DNA of 64,000 nucleotides, from assembly GCF_003790525.1 (NCBI RefSeq), contig NZ_CP033632.1. One strand, 5' to 3'. A model generated the notes under the pieces. It was not told where the DNA came from and made no database searches. It worked only from the letters and a program-made list of their open reading frames with translations. Source of the DNA: Escherichia coli. GTDB lineage: Bacteria > Pseudomonadota > Gammaproteobacteria > Enterobacterales > Enterobacteriaceae. Numbering within the stretch: the stretch's first letter is position 1; the number at the start of each line of letters is the position of its first letter. Made by a program: the position numbers and the translations under genes. Below, one piece after another: positions 3,637-23,791 of the stretch.

Positions 3637-4456
3637 GGCACTGTTGCAAAGTTAGCGATGAGGCAGCCTTTTGTCTTATTCAAAGGCCTTACATTTCAAA
3701 AACTCTGCTTACCAGGCGCATTTCGCCCAGGGGATCACCATAATAAAATGCTGAGGCCTGGCCTTTGCGTAGTGCACGCATCACCTCAATACCTTTGATG
3801 GTGGCGTAAGCCGTCTTCATGGATTTAAATCCCAGCGTGGCGTTGATTATCCGTTTCAGTTTGCCATGATCGCATTCAATCACGTTGTTCCGGTACTTAA
3901 TCTGTCGGTGTTCAACGTCAGACGGGCACCGGCCTTCGCGTTTGAGCAGAGCAAGCGCGCGACCATAGGCGGGCGCTTTATCCGTGTTGATGAATCGTGG
4001 GATCTGCCACTTCTTCACGTTGTTGAGGATTTTACCCAGAAACCGGTATGCAGCTTTGCTGTTACGACGGGAGGAGAGATAAAAATCGACAGTGCGGCCC
4101 CGGCTGTCGACGGCCCGGTACAGATACGCCCAGCGGCCATTGACCTTCACGTAGGTTTCATCCATGTGCCACGGGCAAAGATCGGAAGGGTTACGCCAGT
4201 ACCAGCGCAGCCGTTTTTCCATTTCAGGCGCATAACGCTGAACCCAGCGGTAAATCGTGGAGTGATCGACATTCACTCCGCGTTCAGCCAGCATCTCCTG
4301 CAGCTCACGGTAACTGATGCCGTATTTGCAGTACCAGCGTACGGCCCACAGAATGATGTCACGCTGAAAATGCCGGCCTTTGAATGGGTTCATGTGCAGC
4401 TCCATCAGCAAAAGGGGATGATAAGTTTATCACCACCGACTATTTGCAACAGTGCC
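3637..4456 (-). mobile_element. IS26: IS26 copy 2
   Basis: 820 bp with terminal IRs. Confidence 0.97.
3689..4411 (-). CDS. tnp26: IS26 transposase Tnp26, Asn184 allele
   Basis: ORF translation identical to copy 1. Confidence 0.95.
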   Translation of the reverse strand: MLMELHMNPFKGRHFQRDIILWAVRWYCKYGISYRELQEMLAERGVNVDHSTIYRWVQRYAPEMEKRLRWYWRNPSDLCPWHMDETYVKVNGRWAYLYRAVDSRGRTVDFYLSSRRNSKAAYRFLGKILNNVKKWQIPRFINTDKAPAYGRALALLKREGRCPSDVEHRQIKYRNNVIECDHGKLKRIINATLGFKSMKTAYATIKGIEVMRALRKGQASAFYYGDPLGEMRLVSRVFEM

Positions 4457-4517
4457 CTATAAAGAACTAAAGAAATGAAGATACAAAGATACGAATATCT
4501 GAATAAAAACAGAAAAA

Positions 4518-4637
4518 TGCGTACCCATCCACCTTTCAGTGCGTACCCATCCACCTTTCAGTGCGCAGCCATCCACCTTTCATGAAAATTACAGTGCGTA
4601 CCCATCCACCTTTCAGTGCGTACCCATCCACCTTTCA
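4518..4637. repeat. Five direct ~22-bp iterons (consensus tgcgtacccatccacctttcag) in blocks of 3 and 2
   Basis: Tandem direct repeats read directly in the sequence. Confidence 0.85.
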
Positions 4638-4806
4638 TTTTGAGGCGACAAAAAACAACACCTATCTTAATGAAATTATTGATAAAAAAACTGGCACAAT
4701 GTTTGCAGAATAAGTTAGAGTAAGTTAAAGATCTTAAAGTAGATCTACCGATCTACATTTAAGATCTTAAAAACAAGAAGTTTAATAAGCAAAAAAACAC
4801 AAAAAA

Positions 4807-4861
4807 TCTGTGGATAACTTTGCTCAAAACAAAAAATTCACACTACCTGTGGATAACTTTG
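4807..4861. promoter_or_regulatory. Two 16-bp direct repeats (ctgtggataactttgc), each containing a DnaA-box-like tgtggataa
   Basis: Repeats at 4807..4822 and 4846..4861, next to an AT-rich tract and the iterons. Confidence 0.6.
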
Positions 4862-5499
4862 CGTAAACCCAGAGGACAGATCACTCTGAACCAAGACAAC
4901 CACACATAAAAACAATATGCTCGCTTTTTAACCACTGCGCGTAATTGCCTGATGTTATCCCTGTGCTGTTCCGCTTCCTCGCTCACTAACTCGCTACACT
5001 CGGTCGTTCGGCTGCGGCGAGCGGTGTCTCCTTTCTCAAAACCAGAAGAGTTCAGATCATACGATCCGTTGATTGATCCTTTTTGGATCTTTCACTGAGA
5101 AGCCCTGAATCGCTTTCTAACGCTTTGTTCGATGTAACCATGAGGAAAACCATGTGAAATCGAAAAAATCGCTCAGAATGCGATACAGCGCGTTTTAGAG
5201 GGTATTTACAAAACAGTCGTTGCCTTGAGGAAATTTTGATCAAGATTGAACTCCTATCCGGATCATGGCAACAGATCACAGCAACAAGGCCGCTAAAAAG
5301 CGTTGAGCGGCGTTAAAAACCGTTAAACCGTAGCTGACTATAACGAAACGGGAAAAAACGCTCAGAACGCGTTACAGAGCGTTTTAAGGCGATGTCGGAA
5401 AGAGCCATACCTCACCTGTTCTGATGTTTTTCTCAACACAAGCACTTTTAAGAGTACTTTTAAAGATGCTATTATGCCAATAAGACAAGCGGAGGACTT

Positions 5500-5751
5500 A
5501 TGAGCTATCAAATTCTGACAACCACAGCGGCCAGTATTACTGACCTGAAAAAAAATCCTATGGGAACCGTAGCTGAAGGTGAAGGGGACGCTGTTGCGAT
5601 CCTGAACCGAAACGAACCGGCGTTCTATTGCGTTCCACCAAAACTTTACGCCTACTATCGGGAACTCGCTGAAGATGCTGAGTTAAACGCTGTTGCTGAT
5701 GAGCGCATGAAAAACCCGGAAATTGTGAAGGTTAACCTGGATGACCTATGA
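5500..5751 (+). CDS. Type II antitoxin (StbD/RelB-like, Phd/YefM-type), 83 aa
   Basis: Small acidic protein overlapping a RelE/ParE-like toxin gene by 11 bp. Confidence 0.65.
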   Translation: MSYQILTTTAASITDLKKNPMGTVAEGEGDAVAILNRNEPAFYCVPPKLYAYYRELAEDAELNAVADERMKNPEIVKVNLDDL

Positions 5752-6022
5752 ACTGGCTTTTGACCGCAGAGCACTGAAGGAATGGCAGAAACTCGGCCAC
5801 ACCATCCGTGAACAATTCAAAAAGAAGCTGGCAGAACGGCTGGAAAATCCACGCGTACCCGCAGCCCGGTTACATGGTCATGCTGATCGCTATAAAATCA
5901 AACTTCGTGCATCTGGCTACAGACTTGTATATCAAGTCATTGATGAGAAAGTCGTTTTACTCGTTATTGCTGTTGGAAGAAGGGAAAGCAGCGAAGTTTA
6001 TCAGATTGCAGATATGCGCTGA
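5741..6022 (+). CDS. RelE/ParE-family toxin (StbE-like), 93 aa
   Basis: Translation ...RLHGHADRYKIKLRASGYRLVYQVIDEKVVLLVIAVGRRESSEVY is typical of RelE/ParE. Confidence 0.75.
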   Translation: MTYELAFDRRALKEWQKLGHTIREQFKKKLAERLENPRVPAARLHGHADRYKIKLRASGYRLVYQVIDEKVVLLVIAVGRRESSEVYQIADMR

Positions 6023-6208
6023 ACTGAAACCCGCCCCGTAATTCGCGGCTGCAGCCGCTCAGACGCGCAGATGCTACACACCGTCACGGCGTACCGTTCG
6101 CAAGCTTACGCGCTAACTGCGAAAGGCTAATTGCGTGTTGTTAGTCCGGTAATGGGCTTTGCAGGGAGGGGGGATGTCCCTGATCTTAATTAAGCTGGTT
6201 TGTTTCCG

Positions 6209-6350
6209 GGCACTGTTGCAAAGTTAGCGATGAGGCAGCCTTTTGTCTTATTCAAAGGCCTTACATTTCAAAAACTCTGCTTACCAGGCGCATTTCGCCT
6301 AGGGGATCACCATAATAAAATGCTGAGGCCTGGCCTTTGCGTAGTGCACG
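6209..6350 (-). mobile_element. IS26: IS26 stub (142 bp of the end distal to the tnp start)
   Basis: Matches 3637..3778 with one SNP (t at 6300); homology ends abruptly at 6350. Confidence 0.85.
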
Positions 6351-6518
6351 TATAGGAAATTGAAAAACCAGTCGATACCATTGTCCACGCCTTATGCCAC
6401 GTGAGCCTTTCTGCTTTTCCCACCACTCCGGTGGTTTCCCTCTCTGTATGGTCGATTTTTATACCGTAACAGGCTGTTTTTTATACTTTCACCGATTCCC
6501 GGGCACACTTAGCCTGTG

Positions 6519-7718
6519 TCAGGCCGGCATATACCTCAGTAGACTGATATCCCGCGCGTTTTTCTTCAGCCCTGATACATTCAGCCCCGCAATGGCCCGG
6601 CGGTATACCATCCGGCAGCCACACAGCACGCATTCGAACGGGTCACGACTCAGGAACTGTTTCACCATTTGTGCATAGCACACTTTCGCCACTGGTTCCG
6701 GTTTATCCATCCCCAGTGCACGGTACACCTGCGGCAGCTTCTCTCCACACACACGGTTGGCAAGGAACCCGAAGTACCTCACCATCTTAAAAAACTTCTC
6801 CGGGATGTGCTGTTTCAGCCTCGCGACCAGCTCACGCTGTGTCAGCGTTTCCGTCGCCGTTTCTCCCGTTTTGTGGTCCAGGTAACGGAAGCTCAGGCTT
6901 GCCCCTCCGTTGTAATGAGCCAGTCGGGAAGCCGCTATTGGTGGCTTCTTCAGATAACGACCCAGGTAGCGTGCCGTATTCCGCCCTCCGGCTGTCTTCT
7001 TCGACATGTACACATGCCAGTATTTTCCGCCGGATTTCAGCACCAGGCTTCTCCACTGTGATTCCGTCGTGATATGTGACAACGACTCCGGCATTGCCAT
7101 CCCCTCTGACCACGCTTTCAGAAGCAGCTGCCGCATATTCCACATCCACCGTGAACGCATCGCGTCTTTCAGGAAGCTCAGCTTTTTCCACTGACCATGC
7201 TTATTCAGACCTCCACAGGTTACAGACACATGTACATGCGGATGCCAGTTGAGACGACGGCCATACGTGTGGATGGCGCAGAAGATACCGGGTTCCAGCC
7301 CCCGTTTTCGGGCGGCATACAGCAGATTCTCCACCGCCAGACGGCACACGTCATTCAGCAGCCAGCGGTTGCTTTCGAACACCGGCCACAGCGTGTCCGG
7401 CAGGGTGAAGACCAGATGTACCCAGTCGCAGTCAGGAAGACGATTCAGCTGTGTTGCTGTCCACAGGTCTGTGGCCTTCTTTCCGCAGGACGGGCAGGCA
7501 CGGCTGCCGCATGAGTTGGTCAGGTACTTTACGTGCTGACAGTCCGGGTTATCACACCCGAACTCTTTTACACCCAGTATCCGTGTGCCGCAGGCCAGCA
7601 TTTTGGTGACGGCTTCAACCTCGATATCGCGCAGACCGCCCGCATCCAGGAAGGACGTCCAGCACTGGTTGGCTGTGAACAGACGTTTCAGAGGGCGGGG
7701 AGTAAAACCGGACAACAT
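6519..7718 (-). CDS. IS91-family (HUH rolling-circle) transposase, 399 aa
   Basis: N-terminal Cys cluster CDNPDCQHVKYLTNSCGSRACPSCGKK and IS91-like body, recalled not searched. Confidence 0.65.
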   Translation of the reverse strand: MLSGFTPRPLKRLFTANQCWTSFLDAGGLRDIEVEAVTKMLACGTRILGVKEFGCDNPDCQHVKYLTNSCGSRACPSCGKKATDLWTATQLNRLPDCDWVHLVFTLPDTLWPVFESNRWLLNDVCRLAVENLLYAARKRGLEPGIFCAIHTYGRRLNWHPHVHVSVTCGGLNKHGQWKKLSFLKDAMRSRWMWNMRQLLLKAWSEGMAMPESLSHITTESQWRSLVLKSGGKYWHVYMSKKTAGGRNTARYLGRYLKKPPIAASRLAHYNGGASLSFRYLDHKTGETATETLTQRELVARLKQHIPEKFFKMVRYFGFLANRVCGEKLPQVYRALGMDKPEPVAKVCYAQMVKQFLSRDPFECVLCGCRMVYRRAIAGLNVSGLKKNARDISLLRYMPA

Positions 7719-7727
7719 GAGGATGGA

Positions 7728-7916
7728 TTAAACCCCGGTATCCTGTAGCAGGGTAAGGGCTGCTGTATCGCCACGGCGCTTCAGGATGGAGGTCGTCACC
7801 ATCGCAGGTGGTGGGTCCATGGGTTTGAGCATTTTCATCCAGTCCCATTCTCGTTGTGAGAGCTTCTCAGCACCAACAGAGAGCAGAACTGTATCGATAC
7901 TTTTGCGGGTCAACAT
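7728..7916 (-). CDS. Small ORF upstream of the IS91-family transposase, 62 aa
   Basis: Same strand, 9 bp upstream of the transposase gene; IS91-like elements often carry a small upstream ORF. Confidence 0.3.
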   Translation of the reverse strand: MLTRKSIDTVLLSVGAEKLSQREWDWMKMLKPMDPPPAMVTTSILKRRGDTAALTLLQDTGV

Positions 7917-8026
7917 AAGGGGATGAGTCCTTAATAAAACAGGTCCTCAGAGCATACATATTCTGCGGGGCGTGCGGCAACAACAGGACGAACCGGGGCG
8001 GTTTTCAATTTGCAGCCGCCAGGCTG

Positions 8027-9477
8027 CCGTGGTTCATGATAACTTCTGCTCTTCATCGTGCGGCCGACTGGGCTAAATCTGTGTTCTCTTCGGCGGCGCT
8101 GGGTGATCCTCGCCGTACTGCCCGCTTGGTTAACGTCGCCGCCCAATTGGCAAAATATTCTGGTAAATCAATAACCATCTCATCAGAGGGTAGTGAAGCC
8201 ATGCAGGAAGGCGCTTACCGATTTATCCGCAATCCCAACGTTTCTGCCGAGGCGATCAGAAAGGCTGGCGCCATGCAAACAGTCAAGTTGGCTCAGGAGT
8301 TTCCCGAACTGCTGGCCATTGAGGACACCACCTCTTTGAGTTATCGCCACCAGGTCGCCGAAGAGCTTGGCAAGCTGGGCTCTATTCAGGATAAATCCCG
8401 CGGATGGTGGGTTCACTCCGTTCTCTTGCTCGAGGCCACCACATTCCGCACCGTAGGATTACTGCATCAGGAGTGGTGGATGCGCCCGGATGACCCTGCC
8501 GATGCGGATGAAAAGGAGAGTGGCAAATGGCTGGCAGCGGCCGCAACTAGCCGGTTACGCATGGGCAGCATGATGAGCAACGTGATTGCGGTCTGTGACC
8601 GCGAAGCCGATATTCATGCTTATCTGCAGGACAAACTGGCGCATAACGAGCGCTTCGTGGTGCGCTCCAAGCACCCACGCAAGGACGTAGAGTCTGGGTT
8701 GTATCTGTACGACCATCTGAAGAACCAACCGGAGTTGGGTGGCTATCAGATCAGCATTCCGCAAAAGGGCGTGGTGGATAAACGCGGTAAACGTAAAAAT
8801 CGACCAGCCCGCAAGGCGAGCTTGAGCCTGCGCAGTGGGCGCATCACGCTAAAACAGGGGAATATCACGCTCAACGCGGTGCTGGCCGAGGAGATTAACC
8901 CGCCCAAGGGTGAGACCCCGTTGAAATGGTTGTTGCTGACCAGCGAACCGGTCGAGTCGCTAGCCCAAGCCTTGCGCGTCATCGACATTTATACCCATCG
9001 CTGGCGGATCGAGGAGTTCCATAAGGCATGGAAAACCGGAGCAGGAGCCGAGAGGCAACGCATGGAGGAGCCGGATAATCTGGAGCGGATGGTCTCGATC
9101 CTCTCGTTTGTTGCGGTCAGGCTGTTACAGCTCAGAGAAAGCTTCACGCTGCCGCAAGCACTCAGGGCGCAAGGGCTGCTAAAGGAAGCGGAACACGTAG
9201 AAAGCCAGTCCGCAGAAACGGTGCTGACCCCGGATGAATGTCAGCTACTGGGCTATCTGGACAAGGGAAAACGCAAGCGCAAAGAGAAAGCAGGTAGCTT
9301 GCAGTGGGCTTACATGGCGATAGCTAGACTGGGCGGTTTTATGGACAGCAAGCGAACCGGAATTGCCAGCTGGGGCGCCCTCTGGTAAGCTTGGGAAGCC
9401 CTGCAAAGTAAACTGGATGGCTTTCTTGCCGCCAAGGATCTGATGGCGCAGGGGATCAAGATCTGATCAAGAGACAG
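8027..9477 (+). mobile_element. IS50L: IS50L of Tn5, missing about 90 bp including the outside end
   Basis: Inside end agatctgatcaagagacag at 9459..9477; IS50 homology begins only about 6 bp upstream of the tnp start. Confidence 0.85.
8036..9388 (+). CDS. tnp: IS50L transposase, 450 aa (ochre-truncated relative to the 476-aa IS50R Tnp)
   Basis: Translation MITSALHRAADWAKSVF...; ends at ...GIASWGALW as expected for IS50L. Confidence 0.88.
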   Translation: MITSALHRAADWAKSVFSSAALGDPRRTARLVNVAAQLAKYSGKSITISSEGSEAMQEGAYRFIRNPNVSAEAIRKAGAMQTVKLAQEFPELLAIEDTTSLSYRHQVAEELGKLGSIQDKSRGWWVHSVLLLEATTFRTVGLLHQEWWMRPDDPADADEKESGKWLAAAATSRLRMGSMMSNVIAVCDREADIHAYLQDKLAHNERFVVRSKHPRKDVESGLYLYDHLKNQPELGGYQISIPQKGVVDKRGKRKNRPARKASLSLRSGRITLKQGNITLNAVLAEEINPPKGETPLKWLLLTSEPVESLAQALRVIDIYTHRWRIEEFHKAWKTGAGAERQRMEEPDNLERMVSILSFVAVRLLQLRESFTLPQALRAQGLLKEAEHVESQSAETVLTPDECQLLGYLDKGKRKRKEKAGSLQWAYMAIARLGGFMDSKRTGIASWGALW

Positions 9478-9482
9478 GATGA

Positions 9483-10289
<807 letters not shown>

Positions 10290-10309
10290 GCGGGACTCTG
10301 GGGTTCGAA

Positions 10310-10532
10310 ATGACCGACCAAGCGACGCCCAACCTGCCATCACGAGATTTCGATTCCACCGCCGCCTTCTATGAAAGGTTGGGCTTCGGAATCGTTTTCC
10401 GGGACGCCGGCTGGATGATCCTCCAGCGCGGGGATCTCATGCTGGAGTTCTTCGCCCACCCCGGGCTCGATCCCCTCGCGAGTTGGTTCAGCTGCTGCCT
10501 GAGGCTGGACGACCTCGCGGAGTTCTACCGGC
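10310..10532 (+). pseudogene. ble: Tn5 bleomycin-resistance gene ble, 3' end removed by IS26
   Basis: Translation MTDQATPNLPSRDFDSTAAFYERLGFGIVFRDAGWMILQRGDLMLEFFAHPGLDPLASWFSCCLRLDDLAEFYR matches Ble, then runs into the IS26 IR. Confidence 0.85.
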
Positions 10533-11352
10533 GGCACTGTTGCAAATAGTCGGTGGTGATAAACTTATCATCCCCTTTTGCTGATGGAGCTGCACATGAA
10601 CCCATTCAAAGGCCGGCATTTTCAGCGTGACATCATTCTGTGGGCCGTACGCTGGTACTGCAAATACGGCATCAGTTACCGTGAGCTGCAGGAGATGCTG
10701 GCTGAACGCGGAGTGAATGTCGATCACTCCACGATTTACCGCTGGGTTCAGCGTTATGCGCCTGAAATGGAAAAACGGCTGCGCTGGTACTGGCGTAACC
10801 CTTCCGATCTTTGCCCGTGGCACATGGATGAAACCTACGTGAAGGTCAATGGCCGCTGGGCGTATCTGTACCGGGCCGTCGACAGCCGGGGCCGCACTGT
10901 CGATTTTTATCTCTCCTCCCGTCGTAACAGCAAAGCTGCATACCGGTTTCTGGGTAAAATCCTCAACAACGTGAAGAAGTGGCAGATCCCGCGATTCATC
11001 AACACGGATAAAGCGCCCGCCTATGGTCGCGCGCTTGCTCTGCTCAAACGCGAAGGCCGGTGCCCGTCTGACGTTGAACACCGACAGATTAAGTACCGGA
11101 ACAACGTGATTGAATGCGATCATGGCAAACTGAAACGGATAATCGGCGCCACGCTGGGATTTAAATCCATGAAGACGGCTTACGCCACCATCAAAGGTAT
11201 TGAGGTGATGCGTGCACTACGCAAAGGCCAGGCCTCAGCATTTTATTATGGTGATCCCCTGGGCGAAATGCGCCTGGTAAGCAGAGTTTTTGAAATGTAA
11301 GGCCTTTGAATAAGACAAAAGGCTGCCTCATCGCTAACTTTGCAACAGTGCC
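10533..11352 (+). mobile_element. IS26: IS26 copy 3 (Gly184 allele)
   Basis: 820 bp with terminal IRs. Confidence 0.97.
10578..11300 (+). CDS. tnp26: IS26 transposase Tnp26, Gly184 allele (RIIGATLGF)
   Basis: ORF translation. Confidence 0.95.
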   Translation: MLMELHMNPFKGRHFQRDIILWAVRWYCKYGISYRELQEMLAERGVNVDHSTIYRWVQRYAPEMEKRLRWYWRNPSDLCPWHMDETYVKVNGRWAYLYRAVDSRGRTVDFYLSSRRNSKAAYRFLGKILNNVKKWQIPRFINTDKAPAYGRALALLKREGRCPSDVEHRQIKYRNNVIECDHGKLKRIIGATLGFKSMKTAYATIKGIEVMRALRKGQASAFYYGDPLGEMRLVSRVFEM

Positions 11353-11950: not shown

Positions 11951-14900
11951 CTAGGCGGGCAGATCCTCCTGGACCGGCTTCCTGCGGGTCACCAGTTTCC
12001 GTAGCGTCACGTAAAACACCGGCGTCAGGAACAGACCGAAGAGCGTCACGCCCAGCATCCCGGAGAACACCGTGATCCCGGTGACGCCGCGGACTTCCGC
12101 CCCCGCGCCGTGGCCGAGGATCAGCGGAATGGTCCCGGCGATAAAGGCGATGGAGGTCATCACGATCGGGCGCAGACGCAGGCGGCATGCCTCCAGCGCC
12201 GCTTCCATGATGCCTTTCCCCTGGATCTCCAGCTCGCGGGCAAACTCGACGATCAGAATGGCGTTTTTACAGGCCAGGCCCATCAGGACCACCAGACCCA
12301 CCTGCACGAAGACGTTGTTATCGCCCCCGGTCAGCCAGACGCCAAACAGCGCGGAGAGCATCGTCATCGGTACGATAAGGATCACCGCCAGCGGCAGGGT
12401 CCAGCTTTCATACAGCGCGGCCAGTACGAGGAATGCCAGCAGCACCGCCACCGGGAAGACGATCAGCGCCGTGTTGCCCTGGGTGGCCTGCTGGAAGCTG
12501 AGATCCGTCCACTCAATATTCATCCCATTCGGCAGGATCTGCTTCGACAGCTCTTCCAGATGCGTCATCGCCTGCGAAGAAGAGAGGACCCGCGGATCGG
12601 CATCGCCAATCAGGTCCGCCGCCGGATAACCGTTGTAGCGGATCACCGGATCCGGCCCGTAGGTGGTACTGATATTCACCATACTGCCGATCGGTACCAT
12701 TTCGCCCTGATTATTGCGGGTGCGCAGATTGGCGATATCTTCCACGCTCTCGCGGTATGGTCCGTCAGCCTGGGCCATCACGCGCCAGGTACGCCCGAAC
12801 TGGTTAAAGTCATTGACATAAGACGAGCCGAGATAGGTCTGCAGCGTACCGAACAGATCGGTTAGCGATACCCCCTGCGCTTTCGCCTTATCGCGATCGA
12901 CCTGCACGTCCAGCTGCGGCACGTTAGCCTGGTAAGTCGAGATCGGGAAGTGCATCCCCGGCGTCTGCATAATCGCCCCGGACATCGCATTCACCGCGCT
13001 TTGCAGCGCGCCATAGCCCAGCCCTCCGCGATCCTGGATGTACAGGGAGTAGCCGGAACCCTGACCCAGACCTAAAATCGGCGGCGGCAGGATGGAAAAG
13101 CCAAAGCCCTGCTGGATTTGCGCGATTTTGGCGTTGATCTCCGCGTTAATTTCCGCCGCCGTGTGTTTGCGCTGGTCGAACGGTTTCAGGCCAAAAAAGA
13201 CCGTCCCGGTATTCGGCGTGTTGGTGAACTGCAGCGCGTTAAGCCCCGGGAAAGCGACCGCATAGTCGACCCCTTCGGTATTCATCCCGATCTCGCTCAT
13301 TTTGCGGATCACCGCGTCGGTGCGCGCCAGCGACGACCCTTCCGGCATCTTCACGCCGCCAATGAGATACAGCTTATCCTGGGTGGGAATAAACCCGCCG
13401 GGGACGACTTTAAACATCACCCCAGCGGCGCAGAGCAGCAGCAGGTACACCGCAAACACTGCGCCACGGCGTCCAAGCGTTTTGCCTACCAGTCCCTGAT
13501 AGCCGTTCGAGCTGCGCAGGAAAAAGCGGTTAAACGGACGGAAAATCCAGCCAAACAGGCGATCGATCAGCCGGGTAGGGAGGTCTTTCTTCGCGCCGTG
13601 CGGCTTTAACAGCAGGGCCGCCAGCGCCGGGGAGAGCGTCAGCGAGTTGATGGCCGAGATCACCGTCGAGATGGCGATGGTCACCGCGAACTGTTTGTAG
13701 AACTGGCCGGTGACCCCGGAGAGAAACGCCATCGGCACGAACACCGCACACAGCACCAGCGCAATGGCGATAATCGGCCCGGAGACCTCACGCATCGCCT
13801 GATGCGCCGCGGCAAGCGGCGCAAGCCCCTCTTCGATATTACGCTCGACGTTCTCCACCACCACGATGGCGTCGTCCACCACGATACCGATAGCCAGTAC
13901 CAGCCCGAACAGGCTCAGGGTATTCAGCGAGAAGCCCAGCAGATAGAGAATGCTGAAGGTACCCACCACCGATACCGGCACAGCGATCAACGGGATAATC
14001 GACGCGCGCCAGGTCTGCAGGAACAGGATCACTACCAGCACCACCAGCACTACCGCCTCCAGCAGCGTCTGCACCACCGCGCGGATGGAGTCGCGGACGA
14101 AAACCGTCGGGTCGTACGGCGCCGCCCATTGCATATCTTCCGGGAAGCGGGTGGCCAGCTCGGCCATTTTGGCGCGTACCGCGTTCGACAGATCGATGGC
14201 GTTAGCGCCGGGTGACTGGAAGATACCGATCCCGACCGCATCCTTATTGTTGAGCTGGGAGCGCAGCGCATAGCTACCGGAACCCATCTCGATGCGCGCC
14301 ACGTCGCGCAGGCGGACCAGCGAGCCATCCTGCGCCGTTTTCAGAATGATATTGCCAAACTCTTCTTCGGTATGCAGACGGCCCTGGGCGTTAATGGAGA
14401 TCAGGAAATCGCTCTCCTGCGGCAGCGGCTCGGCGCCAAGCTGTCCGGCAGACACCTGGACGTTTTGCTCCTGCATCGCCGTCACCACATCCGAGGCCGT
14501 CAGACCGCGGGCAGCGACCTTATTGGGATCCAGCCAGACGCGCATCGCATATTCACCGGAGCCAAAAATCTGGATCTGGCCGACGCCGGGCAGGCGCGCC
14601 AGCTCATCCTTCACTTTCAGCGTGGCGTAGTTGCGCATATACAGCGAGTCGTACTTCCCGCCGGGGGAGAACAGATGCACCACCAGGGTCAGCGTCGGAG
14701 ACTGCTTCTGGGTGGTGATCCCCAGACGGCGTACATCCTCCGGCAGACGCGCTTCGGCCTGCGCGACGCGGTTCTGCACCTGAACCTGCGCCTGATCCGG
14801 GTCGGTACCCGGGCGGAAGGTGACGGTGGTGACCAGCACGCCGTCGGAGCCGGCGACCGATTTCATGTACATCATGTTTTCAACGCCGTTGATCGCTTCC

Positions 14901-15103
14901 TCCAGCGGCGTCGCCACGGTCTCGGCAATCACTTTCGGGTTGGCGCCGGGATACTCCGCGCGCACCTGGACGCTCGGCGGGACGACATCCGGATATTCGC
15001 TCACCGGCAGCAGTGGGATAGCGATTAACCCGGTGATAAAAATTAAAATCGACAGCACCGCGGCGAAAATCGGCCTGTCGATAAAAAAGCGGGAAAAGTC
15101 CAT
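11951..15103 (-). CDS. oqxB: RND efflux transporter OqxB, 1050 aa
   Basis: AcrB-like 1050-aa translation; paired with the adaptor gene. Confidence 0.9.
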   Translation of the reverse strand: MDFSRFFIDRPIFAAVLSILIFITGLIAIPLLPVSEYPDVVPPSVQVRAEYPGANPKVIAETVATPLEEAINGVENMMYMKSVAGSDGVLVTTVTFRPGTDPDQAQVQVQNRVAQAEARLPEDVRRLGITTQKQSPTLTLVVHLFSPGGKYDSLYMRNYATLKVKDELARLPGVGQIQIFGSGEYAMRVWLDPNKVAARGLTASDVVTAMQEQNVQVSAGQLGAEPLPQESDFLISINAQGRLHTEEEFGNIILKTAQDGSLVRLRDVARIEMGSGSYALRSQLNNKDAVGIGIFQSPGANAIDLSNAVRAKMAELATRFPEDMQWAAPYDPTVFVRDSIRAVVQTLLEAVVLVVLVVILFLQTWRASIIPLIAVPVSVVGTFSILYLLGFSLNTLSLFGLVLAIGIVVDDAIVVVENVERNIEEGLAPLAAAHQAMREVSGPIIAIALVLCAVFVPMAFLSGVTGQFYKQFAVTIAISTVISAINSLTLSPALAALLLKPHGAKKDLPTRLIDRLFGWIFRPFNRFFLRSSNGYQGLVGKTLGRRGAVFAVYLLLLCAAGVMFKVVPGGFIPTQDKLYLIGGVKMPEGSSLARTDAVIRKMSEIGMNTEGVDYAVAFPGLNALQFTNTPNTGTVFFGLKPFDQRKHTAAEINAEINAKIAQIQQGFGFSILPPPILGLGQGSGYSLYIQDRGGLGYGALQSAVNAMSGAIMQTPGMHFPISTYQANVPQLDVQVDRDKAKAQGVSLTDLFGTLQTYLGSSYVNDFNQFGRTWRVMAQADGPYRESVEDIANLRTRNNQGEMVPIGSMVNISTTYGPDPVIRYNGYPAADLIGDADPRVLSSSQAMTHLEELSKQILPNGMNIEWTDLSFQQATQGNTALIVFPVAVLLAFLVLAALYESWTLPLAVILIVPMTMLSALFGVWLTGGDNNVFVQVGLVVLMGLACKNAILIVEFARELEIQGKGIMEAALEACRLRLRPIVMTSIAFIAGTIPLILGHGAGAEVRGVTGITVFSGMLGVTLFGLFLTPVFYVTLRKLVTRRKPVQEDLPA

Positions 15104-15126
15104 GTCTTGGATTCTCTGATTAGGGA

Positions 15127-16302
15127 TCAGTTAAGGGTGGCGCTGGAGGTCATGGCAACGGTTTTGGCGTTAACCGGCATACCCGGCATAAACACTTTTT
15201 GTAAGCCGTCGACGATGACGCTATCCCCAGGATTCAACCCCTTCTGAACGATGCGTAAACCGTCTGCCAGCCGCCCTGGGGTAATGTCGCGGCGCTGTGC
15301 TTTACCATCTTTATCAACGATATAGACGTATTTACGATCCTGATCGGTCAGTACCGCTTTGTCGTCGATCAGCGTGGCTTTGAACTCTGCGCTGCCCGGC
15401 AGACGCACGCGGGCAAACAGCCCCGGCGTGAACAGACGCTGCGAGTTATCCAGCAGCGCACGCATGCGGATGGTGCCGGTACTCGGCGTTAACTGATTAT
15501 CGAGAAAATCCACTTTGCCCTGGTGGGGGTAACCCTCCTCGCCCACCAGGCCAATCTCCACCGGGAGCGCCTGATTATCGCTGGACGCGCCTTGCCCGCG
15601 GCGGGCGAGGTTTTGATAGTGGAGGTAGGTTGACTCGTCGACGTCAAAGTAGACGTACACCGTCTTTTGCGAGACCAGGGTGGTGAGCACGCTGGCGGTG
15701 TCGCCCGCGGTGACCAGGTTACCGCTGGTGATCAGCGCCCGGCTGGCGCGGCCGTCAATAGGGGCGGTCACTTTGGTGAAGTCGAGGTTAAGCTGCGCGG
15801 CATCCACCGCCGCCTGCGCGGCGCGAATGTCGGCCTGCGCCTGAACCGCGGCTGACCGGCGCTGCTCCCACTCTTCACGGGAGACGAGGTTGGTATGGAC
15901 TAATTTATCGGTGCGGTTCGCCTCGCTTTGCGCGAGGCTGGCCTGCGTTTTGGCTCTTGCCAACGCCGCCTGCGCCTGCTCCAGCGCGGCGCGATAGGTT
16001 CTGTCATCTATCGTGAACAGCACCTGGCCCTTTTTCACCTCCTGGCCGTCAGTGTAATTCACTTTATCAATGTATCCCGAGACGCGAGGGCGAAGCTGAA
16101 CGCTCTCCACCGCTTCAATGCGACCGTTAAAACTATCCCACTGACTGATCGACTTCACCAGCACCTTAGCGGCGCTGACCGTCGGGGCGGGAGGCGCAGC
16201 ATTCTGTGCGACGCTGTCGTCGCAGCCGACGAGCAGAAAGGAGAGCATCATCGCGCCGAGCGCGGTCAGGTGAATGTTTCCCCAGGTTTTTTGCAGGCTC
16301 AT
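15127..16302 (-). CDS. oqxA: RND periplasmic adaptor OqxA, 391 aa
   Basis: Membrane-fusion-protein translation upstream of oqxB. Confidence 0.9.
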   Translation of the reverse strand: MSLQKTWGNIHLTALGAMMLSFLLVGCDDSVAQNAAPPAPTVSAAKVLVKSISQWDSFNGRIEAVESVQLRPRVSGYIDKVNYTDGQEVKKGQVLFTIDDRTYRAALEQAQAALARAKTQASLAQSEANRTDKLVHTNLVSREEWEQRRSAAVQAQADIRAAQAAVDAAQLNLDFTKVTAPIDGRASRALITSGNLVTAGDTASVLTTLVSQKTVYVYFDVDESTYLHYQNLARRGQGASSDNQALPVEIGLVGEEGYPHQGKVDFLDNQLTPSTGTIRMRALLDNSQRLFTPGLFARVRLPGSAEFKATLIDDKAVLTDQDRKYVYIVDKDGKAQRRDITPGRLADGLRIVQKGLNPGDSVIVDGLQKVFMPGMPVNAKTVAMTSSATLN

Positions 16303-23247: not shown

Positions 23248-23791
23248 CAATACGGCTGCCGGAGAGTGCTATTGAGGTGAGGCTCCGGCAGCGGGTAAAG
23301 GCGTTGATTCCTGGTAACAATAAGCTGCTTATTGATGTATCAGTAAGCATGCCGGCAGCCATTGCGCTTGATATAATACTACCCCATATGAGCAAGAGTA
23401 TTTTCACGGAAAAGCTAGCAGCCAATTTCGGCCTCGCGGCCTTCCCGCTTCTCAATTGAGCATATAATTTTTCCGCAGCCAAAACCTGCTCAGGTTCAGG
23501 CTTGGTCCTTACAGACTGGTATTCAACAATCGAACCATTCTTAGCTATTGGCGTTACATAAGCACTTACCCAATAGTGGTCGCCATTTTTACAGCGATTT
23601 TTTACTAGCCCCATCCATGAGCGGCCAGATTTTAATGTACTCCACATATGCTCAAATGCAGCAGGCGGCATATCTGGGTGTCTTACGATGTTGTGAGGCT
23701 GGCCTAATAGTTCTTCCTCAGTGAAACCACTGATTTTAATGAAGTCAGGATTAACGTACGTGATATGGCTTTGAGGGGAGGTAGTCGAAAG
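23222..23791 (-). pseudogene. PAS-domain sensor (Aer-like) fragment, 5' end removed by IS26
   Basis: PAS-like segment PAAFEHMWSTLKSGRSWMGLVKNRCKNGDHYWV; coding frame continues up to the IS26 boundary. Confidence 0.55.

What the first reader, a model, noticed from the sequence alone, without database searches (positions are those of the whole stretch)
6351..8026. IS91-family element with undefined ends, joined to the truncated IS50L at a GTTC tetranucleotide
The 399-aa transposase and a small upstream ORF indicate an IS91/IS1294-like rolling-circle element. IS91-family elements insert next to GTTC or CTTG, and the junction with IS50L reads ...ccgtggttc|atgataac. This hints that the element inserted into IS50L, deleting its outside end, but I cannot place oriIS and terIS from memory.
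Basis: inference. Interest (0 to 1): 0.3.

Follow-up and report, generated by a model that had tools for sequence, protein, structure and literature searches.

The report
IS1294 copy between IS26, IS50 remnants
This is an ordinary, complete copy of the known rolling-circle insertion sequence IS1294, sitting between a stub of IS26 and a truncated IS50L in a resistance-plasmid arrangement that is already published and common.

Summary
The element is real and is IS1294 (IS91 family). Ten independent copies from other plasmids place its ends at window 6348 (oriIS, ACGTATAGG...) and 8035 (terIS, ...CCGTGGTTC), a length of 1688 bp. That GTTC is the element's own terminal cleavage tetranucleotide: every copy ends in it, whatever follows. 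Native IS50 does carry GTTC at positions 89-92, immediately before its transposase ATG. The terIS|ATGATAAC junction is therefore what an insertion at that IS50 site would leave. Simple IS1294 insertions delete nothing, so the loss of IS50 bases 1-92 and the mismatched flanks need a second event. That event was either one-ended transposition into IS26 or recombination between two IS1294 copies. Neither ancestral junction was found in any collection searched. The structure IS26-Δble-aph(3')-IIa-ΔIS50-IS1294-ΔIS26-stbD/E is described in the literature. The finding is already known and of low interest.

The parts
6209..6347 (-). ΔIS26: the first 139 bp from the terminal inverted repeat GGCACTGTTGCAAA, ending in GTGC. 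Identity to IS26 actually runs to 6350, because IS26 and IS1294 share ACG at the junction. There is one C>T change at IS26 position 92 (window 6300).
   Evidence: comparison with the complete IS26 at 3637-4456
6344..6347 (+). GTGC, the tetranucleotide immediately 5' of oriIS, in the position of the IS1294 target site. It is non-canonical but fits the [G/C]-T-N-[G/C] pattern seen in all other copies.
   Evidence: other copies: CTTG x4, GTTC x3, GTAC, CTCG, GTCC; IS91 used GTGC in 2 of 240 events
6348..8035 (+). Complete IS1294, 1688 bp. The + strand is the strand that reads oriIS to terIS, and tnpA is on the - strand.
   Evidence: 7 of 10 independent copies are 1688 bp with 0 substitutions, and boundaries are identical in all 10
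6348..6440 (+). oriIS end. It starts ACGTATAGGAAATTGAAAAACC and has a small palindrome CCACC-N5-GGTGG at 6420-6434.
   Evidence: this end is conserved in IS1294b
6519..7718 (-). tnpA, 399 aa, an HUH/Y2 transposase with HPHVH at residue 159, YLGRY at residue 251 and an N-terminal zinc-binding domain.
   Evidence: UniRef names the exact sequence 'IS1294 transposase'
7728..7916 (-). 62-aa ORF upstream of tnpA, annotated as a hypothetical protein in RefSeq. It matches no family, and whether it is a gene is unproven.
8012..8035 (+). terIS: hairpin GCAGCC-GCCA-GGCTGC (8012-8027), then CGTG, then the terminal cleavage tetranucleotide GTTC (8032-8035).
   Evidence: the last 28 bp are identical in IS1294b; (literature)
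8036..9477 (+). ΔIS50L: IS50 positions 93-1534. The outside end (bases 1-92, including the native GTTC at 89-92) is missing. The ochre codon TAA at 9386-9388 marks it as IS50L.
9495..10532 (+). aph(3')-IIa (9495-10289) and Δble (10310-10532) of Tn5, cut off by IS26 (10533-11352). This is the DNA on the terIS side, the only side that one-ended transposition could carry.

Best explanation
Window 6348-8035 is an intact copy of IS1294, an IS91-family insertion sequence that moves by rolling-circle transposition using an HUH/Y2 transposase. On the + strand it reads oriIS (6348) to terIS (8035), and tnpA is on the minus strand. The GTTC at the IS50 junction belongs to terIS. The two flanks come from different molecules or sites. 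The right junction (terIS|IS50 position 93) is the product of a canonical insertion 3' of the native GTTC at IS50L positions 89-92. The left junction (IS26 ...GTGC|oriIS) is the product of an oriIS-end joining at a non-canonical GTGC target in IS26. The history I consider most likely has two steps. First, IS1294 inserted into IS50L of Tn5 just upstream of the transposase ATG. Second, an event specific to the oriIS end joined that end to GTGC in an IS26 lying next to stbD/E on an IncX1 backbone. This second event would be one-ended transposition that read through terIS and carried ΔIS50L-aph(3')-IIa-ble along, or its intramolecular equivalent. It left IS50 bases 1-92 behind. The far end of the carried segment was later erased by IS26 activity at 10533. 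The element's identity, its ends, the ownership of the GTTC and the target position are shown. The order and type of the second event are inferred.
For: Identity: Pfam and NCBIfam IS91-family hits lie far above their cutoffs. The exact TnpA sequence is named IS1294 transposase in UniRef. Papers label this same structure IS1294. Ends: 10 independent copies all start ACGTATAGG and end CCGTGGTTC, and 7 of the 10 are 1688 bp with 0 substitutions. Polarity: [G/C]TN[G/C] lies directly 5' of oriIS in 10 of 10 copies, with no pattern 3' of terIS. This agrees with PMC13181058, which also states that the terIS of IS1294 ends in the cleavage site GTTC. IS50 target: native IS50 has GTTC at 89-92 on the correct strand, and only 0.85% of IS50 positions qualify. 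No deletion on simple insertion: the uninterrupted target sites of L001 and L010 are present in the window. One-ended transposition is documented for IS1294 and IS1294b at 1-14% of events and carries DNA from the terIS side. In IS1294b, blaCMY-2/ISEcp1 lies on the terIS side. GTGC is an observed minor target of IS91.
Against: Neither predicted ancestor junction (IS50 1-92 joined to oriIS, or terIS or other DNA joined to IS26 position 140) exists in PLSDB, complete E. coli genomes, or the metagenome and genome contig collections. The two-step history is therefore unobserved. The far end of any one-ended transposition unit is not preserved, because IS26 cuts ble at 10532/10533. Recombination between IS1294 copies demonstrably reshuffles flanks in related plasmids, so it could equally have produced the hybrid. 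No ISfinder comparison was possible.
Confidence: 0.9

Rival explanations
1. The hybrid flanks arose by homologous recombination between two IS1294 copies. One copy had inserted in IS26 at GTGC and the other in IS50L at GTTC. A crossover within the 1.7-kb repeat deleted or exchanged what lay between them. This rival concerns only the second event, not what the element is.
For: pSI111-1 carries two direct IS1294 copies bracketing a ColE1-like segment, the signature of a recombination cointegrate. pCARKWB has the same ΔIS26|oriIS junction paired with a different terIS flank. PMC6052338 invokes recombination between IS1294 copies repeatedly.
Against: It needs two independent insertions plus a crossover, three events against two. 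Neither parental simple insertion was found in any collection.
Confidence: 0.35
2. A single insertion of the element into IS50L at the visible GTTC deleted the IS50 outside end. The GTTC at 8032-8035 would then be the target copy.
For: Native IS50 does have GTTC exactly there. An insertion whose two joinings used two different sites on one target molecule (IS26 GTGC and IS50 GTTC) cannot be formally excluded.
Against: All 10 independent copies end in GTTC regardless of flank. The literature places the target next to oriIS and assigns GTTC to terIS. Simple insertions leave the target intact. The oriIS flank here is IS26, not IS50.
Confidence: 0.08
3. The junctions are products of illegitimate recombination or random deletion unrelated to IS1294 activity. 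The 3-nt ACG shared by IS26 and IS1294 at 6348-6350 would have served as microhomology.
For: An ACG overlap exists at the left junction.
Against: Both breakpoints coincide to the base with the element's true termini. The left flank ends in an acceptable target tetranucleotide, expected about 6% of the time by chance. The right flank starts at a canonical target position, expected 0.85% of the time.
Confidence: 0.03

Closest known systems
IS1294 (IS91 family; Tavakoli et al. 2000, Plasmid 44:66, cited in PMC13181058)
   Same: The TnpA sequence is the one named IS1294 transposase. The element has no terminal inverted repeats and makes no target duplication. Its terIS has a hairpin and ends in GTTC. 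Its oriIS is flanked by GTTC- or CTTG-type targets. Published maps of this same region name it IS1294.
   Different: The element itself does not differ. Only this copy's flanks are unusual: a non-canonical GTGC next to oriIS, and flanks that are not contiguous with each other. The length measured here is 1688 bp. I could not check it against the ISfinder entry.
IS1294b (the blaCMY-2-mobilising variant)
   Same: It is 94.5% identical over the first 1353 bp from oriIS, and the last 28 bp of terIS are identical. It follows the same target rule, with GTCC in the ISEcp1 copy examined.
   Different: About 300 bp between the tnpA start and terIS are unrelated. Its upstream ORF (90 aa, overlapping tnpA) has no similarity to the 62-aa ORF here.
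IS91
   Same: It has the same family architecture and mechanism, and the same side for the target tetranucleotide. It also shows one-ended transposition.
   Different: The IS91 terIS cleavage site is CTCG, not GTTC. IS91 carries orf121 overlapping tnpA, which the literature says other family members lack. The 62-aa ORF here is separated from tnpA by 9 nt and matches no family.
[quoted passage not shown]
   Same: The window 4457-11352 has the same order and the same truncations.
   Different: Those papers do not dissect the junctions. PMC6052338 suggests IS1294 mobilised the IncX1 segment, but that segment lies on the oriIS side, the side that one-ended transposition does not carry.

Membership tests
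IS91 family / IS1294 | HUH/Y2 rolling-circle transposase with an N-terminal zinc-binding domain | tested here: met
   Pfam PF04986 (195 bits) and PF14319 (76 bits). NCBIfam NF033538 scores 309.6 bits against a cutoff of 125. Motifs HPHVH and YLGRY are present.
IS91 family / IS1294 | No terminal inverted repeats; distinct oriIS and terIS ends | tested here: met
   The two 40-nt ends match at 8 of 40 positions in inverted register, which is chance level.
IS91 family / IS1294 | No target-site duplication and no target loss on insertion | tested here: met
   The joined flanks of copies L001 and L010 occur uninterrupted in the window at 23341 and 7433. This copy cannot be tested itself, because its flanks are non-contiguous.
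IS91 family / IS1294 | Target tetranucleotide GTTC or CTTG immediately 5' of oriIS | tested here: inconclusive
   For this copy the tetranucleotide is GTGC, not a canonical site. Other copies show CTTG x4, GTTC x3, GTAC, CTCG and GTCC, so relaxed [G/C]TN[G/C] use is normal. GTGC was recorded for IS91 in 2 of 240 events.
IS91 family / IS1294 | terIS with a subterminal palindrome and a terminal GTTC cleavage site | tested here: met
   The hairpin lies at 8012-8027 and the GTTC at 8032-8035. All copies and IS1294b have the same end.
IS91 family / IS1294 | Sequence identity to the ISfinder/GenBank IS1294 reference | not testable with these tools
   ISfinder was not available. Indirect support comes from the UniRef name of the identical protein and published annotation of the same module.
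IS91 family / IS1294 | Demonstrated transposition activity of this copy | not testable with these tools
   The intact ORF and ends, and 0 substitutions against 7 copies at other sites, suggest competence. No experiment was done.
IS50L of Tn5 | IS50 sequence with the ochre codon near the inside end, followed by aph(3')-IIa | tested here: met
   Window 8036-10532 equals Tn5 positions 93-2589 with 2 differences from the pMAK2 Tn5, one of which is the ochre T at Tn5 position 1443. The ORF stops at 450 aa.
IS50L of Tn5 | 19-bp outside end, required for transposition | tested here: not met
   The outside end is absent from the whole window, even allowing 2 mismatches. IS50 bases 1-92 are missing. 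This is therefore an immobile remnant.

The most novel reading that the evidence does not exclude
The IS1294|IS50-93 junction may record a one-ended rolling-circle transposition in which IS1294 captured aph(3')-IIa from Tn5 and delivered it into an IS26 at a non-canonical GTGC site. That would have created what is now the dominant plasmid-borne form of this kanamycin/neomycin resistance gene: about 174 of 226 PLSDB records with the 5' part of IS50 carry this junction.
Probability: 0.4. Interest if true: 0.3.

Novelty: already known. Interest (0 to 1): 0.1.

Why it matters
It matters little beyond correct annotation. It fixes the exact ends of IS1294 in this window (6348-8035). It shows that the junction GTTC belongs to the element and that the true target side is the other end. 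It identifies an overlooked 139-bp IS26 stub. It also indicates that, of the two flanks, only the ΔIS50L-aph(3')-IIa side could be mobilised by this IS1294 through one-ended transposition. This is a modest correction to a published suggestion that the IncX1 segment was the cargo. IS1294 activity bears on the spread of resistance genes, but this module is already described and widespread.

Tried and rejected
1. I searched for the reciprocal ancestral junctions, IS50 bases 1-92 joined to oriIS and terIS-GTTC joined to IS26 position 140. None was found in PLSDB, in complete E. coli genomes, or as exact patterns in metagenome and genome contigs.

2. I looked for an intact IS26 at the same IncX1 site as a possible ancestor. 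Seven K. pneumoniae plasmids have one. Its right flank matches DNA next to another IS26 of the window in inverted order, so it is as likely a recombination derivative. It is not decisive.

3. I examined pSI111-1 as a possible example of one-ended transposition of IS1294 with ΔIS50. It turned out to be a two-copy recombination cointegrate.

4. I tested whether the 62-aa ORF is a counterpart of the small ORFs upstream of tnpA in relatives. It has no similarity to the IS1294b ORF and no Pfam or NCBIfam hit. Against a 94.5%-identical Shigella copy whose tnpA is frameshifted, it shows 6 synonymous and 5 non-synonymous codon changes. Coding status remains unresolved.

5. DNA folding of the ends gave only weak z-scores. 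The terIS hairpin is supported by conservation rather than by energy.

6. An attempt to read Tagg et al. 2014 failed because the paper is not held. One literature query was rejected for its syntax.

Full report
**What is in the sequence**

The region contains a 399-aa ORF at 6519..7718 on the minus strand and a 62-aa ORF just upstream at 7728..7916 on the minus strand.
- The large protein matches Pfam Y2_Tnp (1.2e-57) and Zn_Tnp_IS91 (1.9e-21).
- It also matches the NCBIfam equivalog transpos_IS91 at 309.6 bits, against a cutoff of 125.
- It carries an HUH-type motif (HPHVH at residue 159) and a YLGRY tyrosine pair.
- The exact protein sequence is named 'IS1294 transposase' in UniRef.

The quoted junction ...ccgtggttc|atgataac is real. 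Read against the position ruler, the GTTC is at 8032-8035 and the IS50 ATG at 8036.

**Defining the ends**

ISfinder was not available, so I defined the ends by comparison. A megablast of 6320-8060 against 72,556 plasmids gave full-length copies in many unrelated contexts, with alignments breaking at about window 6348 and 8035-8038. I fetched ten copies with flanks and lined them up.
- All ten begin ACGTATAGGAAATTG and all end ...GCAGCCGCCAGGCTGCCGTGGTTC.
- Seven of the ten are 1688 bp with zero substitutions relative to the window copy.
- The element is therefore 6348-8035, a length of 1688 bp.
- The ends are not inverted repeats, matching at 8 of 40 positions in inverted register.

Immediately 5' of ACGTATAGG on the + strand, the ten copies carry CTTG (4), GTTC (3), GTAC, CTCG and GTCC. 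All fit [G/C]-T-N-[G/C]. The bases 3' of the terminal GTTC show no pattern.

The joined flanks of two of these copies occur uninterrupted in the window itself. L001's site is at 23341. L010's site is at 7433, inside IS1294, so L010 is a nested insertion. A simple insertion therefore neither duplicates nor deletes target DNA.

**Which GTTC is it?**

PMC13181058 states that in IS91-family elements the target tetranucleotide lies next to oriIS. It gives 5'-GTTC as that target for IS1294, and it says the terIS of IS801, IS1294 and IS1294b itself ends in the cleavage site 5'-GTTC.

The data agree with this. The GTTC at 8032-8035 is the element's own last four bases. It is preceded by the terIS hairpin GCAGCC-GCCA-GGCTGC at 8012-8027. 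It is present in every copy and in IS1294b, whose last 28 bp are identical.

**Was IS50 nevertheless a genuine target?**

The evidence says it was. Native IS50 reads ...CATGGTAACGTTC|ATGATAAC.... A query made of the native outside end plus window 8036-8185 matched at 100% over 242 bp in more than 15 plasmids. Window 8036-10532 equals Tn5 positions 93-2589 of the pMAK2 Tn5, with two differences. Adding bases 1-92 reconstructs the expected 1534-bp IS50.

The break therefore lies exactly 3' of a native GTTC (positions 89-92) on the correct strand. Only 13 of 1534 positions (0.85%) qualify. An insertion there would give GTTC|oriIS...terIS-GTTC|ATGATAAC, and its right half is what is seen. The ochre TAA at 9386-9388 identifies IS50L. 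The 19-bp outside end is nowhere in the window.

**The other flank**

Window 6209-6347 is the first 139 bp of IS26, from the terminal repeat GGCACTGTTGCAAA. It has one C>T change and ends in GTGC. IS26 and IS1294 share ACG at the junction, so the breakpoint is ambiguous by 3 nt. The element is complete, however, and GTGC fits the relaxed target pattern. IS91 used GTGC in 2 of 240 mapped events. This looks like a transposition junction rather than a random deletion.

If it were a simple insertion, terIS would be followed by IS26 position 140 (ACGCATCACC...). It is followed by IS50 instead. The two flanks therefore belong to two different target sites.

**How the hybrid arose (inferred)**

All routes start from IS1294 inserted in IS50L at GTTC 89-92.
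- Route B: rolling-circle transposition starts at oriIS and reads through terIS. This is documented for 1-14% of IS1294 and IS1294b events and carries terIS-side DNA. In IS1294b, the ISEcp1/blaCMY-2 side is the terIS side. The transposition carries ΔIS50L-aph(3')-IIa-ble into IS26 at GTGC, and the far end is later erased by the IS26 at 10533. An intramolecular version would give the same result as an adjacent deletion.
- Route A: a second copy inserts in IS26, and homologous recombination between the two copies follows. Recombination among IS1294 copies clearly happens in relatives. pSI111-1 has two direct copies around a ColE1-like segment. pCARKWB pairs the ΔIS26 junction with a different right flank.

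I could not discriminate between the routes. Neither reciprocal junction is present in PLSDB, in complete E. coli genomes, or in the metagenome and genome contigs. I give route B about 0.5, route A about 0.35, and other routes the remainder.

**Comparison with what is known**

The arrangement is published. [quoted passage not shown] PMC6052338 and PMC10654068 describe the same segments in F33:A-:B- plasmids.

The window matches this module:
- IS26: 3637-4456
- IncX1 stbD/E: 5500-6022
- ΔIS26: 6209-6347
- IS1294: 6348-8035
- ΔIS50L: 8036-9477
- aph(3')-IIa: 9495-10289
- Δble: up to 10532
- IS26: 10533-11352
- oqxAB (Tn6010): 11951-16302

The terIS|IS50 junction occurs in about 174 PLSDB records. 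Up to 177 records hold the ΔIS26|oriIS junction, a count that includes some two-piece artefacts.

**The small ORF**

RefSeq annotates the 62-aa ORF as a hypothetical protein in every copy.
- It matches no Pfam or NCBIfam family.
- It is unrelated to the 90-aa ORF upstream of IS1294b tnpA.
- It shows 6 synonymous and 5 non-synonymous codon changes against a 94.5%-identical Shigella copy whose tnpA is frameshifted.
- The literature treats an upstream ORF (orf121) as unique to IS91.

The ORF is not evidence for family membership either way.

**Verdict**

This is a correct, slightly mis-coordinated sighting of an intact IS1294 in a well-known resistance module. The GTTC is not coincidental, but it belongs to the element. 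The IS50 breakpoint is a true target position. The loss of the IS50 outside end needs a second event. The finding is already known and of low interest.

Noticed in passing
It carries a C>T change at IS26 position 92 that is absent from the same junction in pCARKWB (L016).
   Followed up: partly
window 23341-23400 and 7433-7492: The window contains the uninterrupted target sites of IS1294 copies found in other plasmids (L001 at a CTTG; L010 at a GTCC inside IS1294 itself, a nested insertion in CP094915).
   Followed up: yes
window 9390 (Tn5 position 1447): A G>C difference from the pMAK2 Tn5, four bases after the IS50L ochre change. It creates AAGCTT about 100 bp upstream of aph(3')-IIa. Any effect on the resistance-gene promoter is unknown.
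   Followed up: no
PLSDB-wide: Of 226 plasmid records holding the 5' part of the IS50 transposase gene, about 174 carry the IS1294|IS50-93 junction and only 49 keep the native outside end. Most plasmid-borne aph(3')-IIa in that collection is therefore this immobilised remnant.
   Followed up: partly
L013:2058-2390 versus window 7701-8007: IS1294 and IS1294b are mosaic. They are 94.5% identical from oriIS to the start of tnpA and identical over the last 28 bp, but the roughly 300 bp between are unrelated. Each carries a different small ORF (62 aa versus 90 aa overlapping tnpA).
   Followed up: partly
window 4457-6208 relative to 6348-8035: PMC6052338 proposes that IS1294 mobilised the adjacent IncX1 (stbD/E) segment. 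That segment lies on the oriIS side, behind the IS26 stub, whereas one-ended transposition carries terIS-side DNA.
   Followed up: partly
window 872-27928: Six complete IS26 copies lie at 872, 3637, 10533, 16559, 23792 and 27109, in both orientations and in two sequence variants that differ at 3 positions. The pair at 10533 and 16559 flanks oqxAB (Tn6010).
   Followed up: partly
L017 (pSI111-1, NZ_CP050765.1) 28.7-30.4 kb and 3.6-5.3 kb: Two direct IS1294 copies bracket a roughly 3.9-kb ColE1-like segment (rop, and a fragment of a nitrate/nitrite-sensor gene). The segment sits between the ΔIS50 and ΔIS26 flanks, apparently a cointegrate formed by recombination within IS1294.
   Followed up: partly
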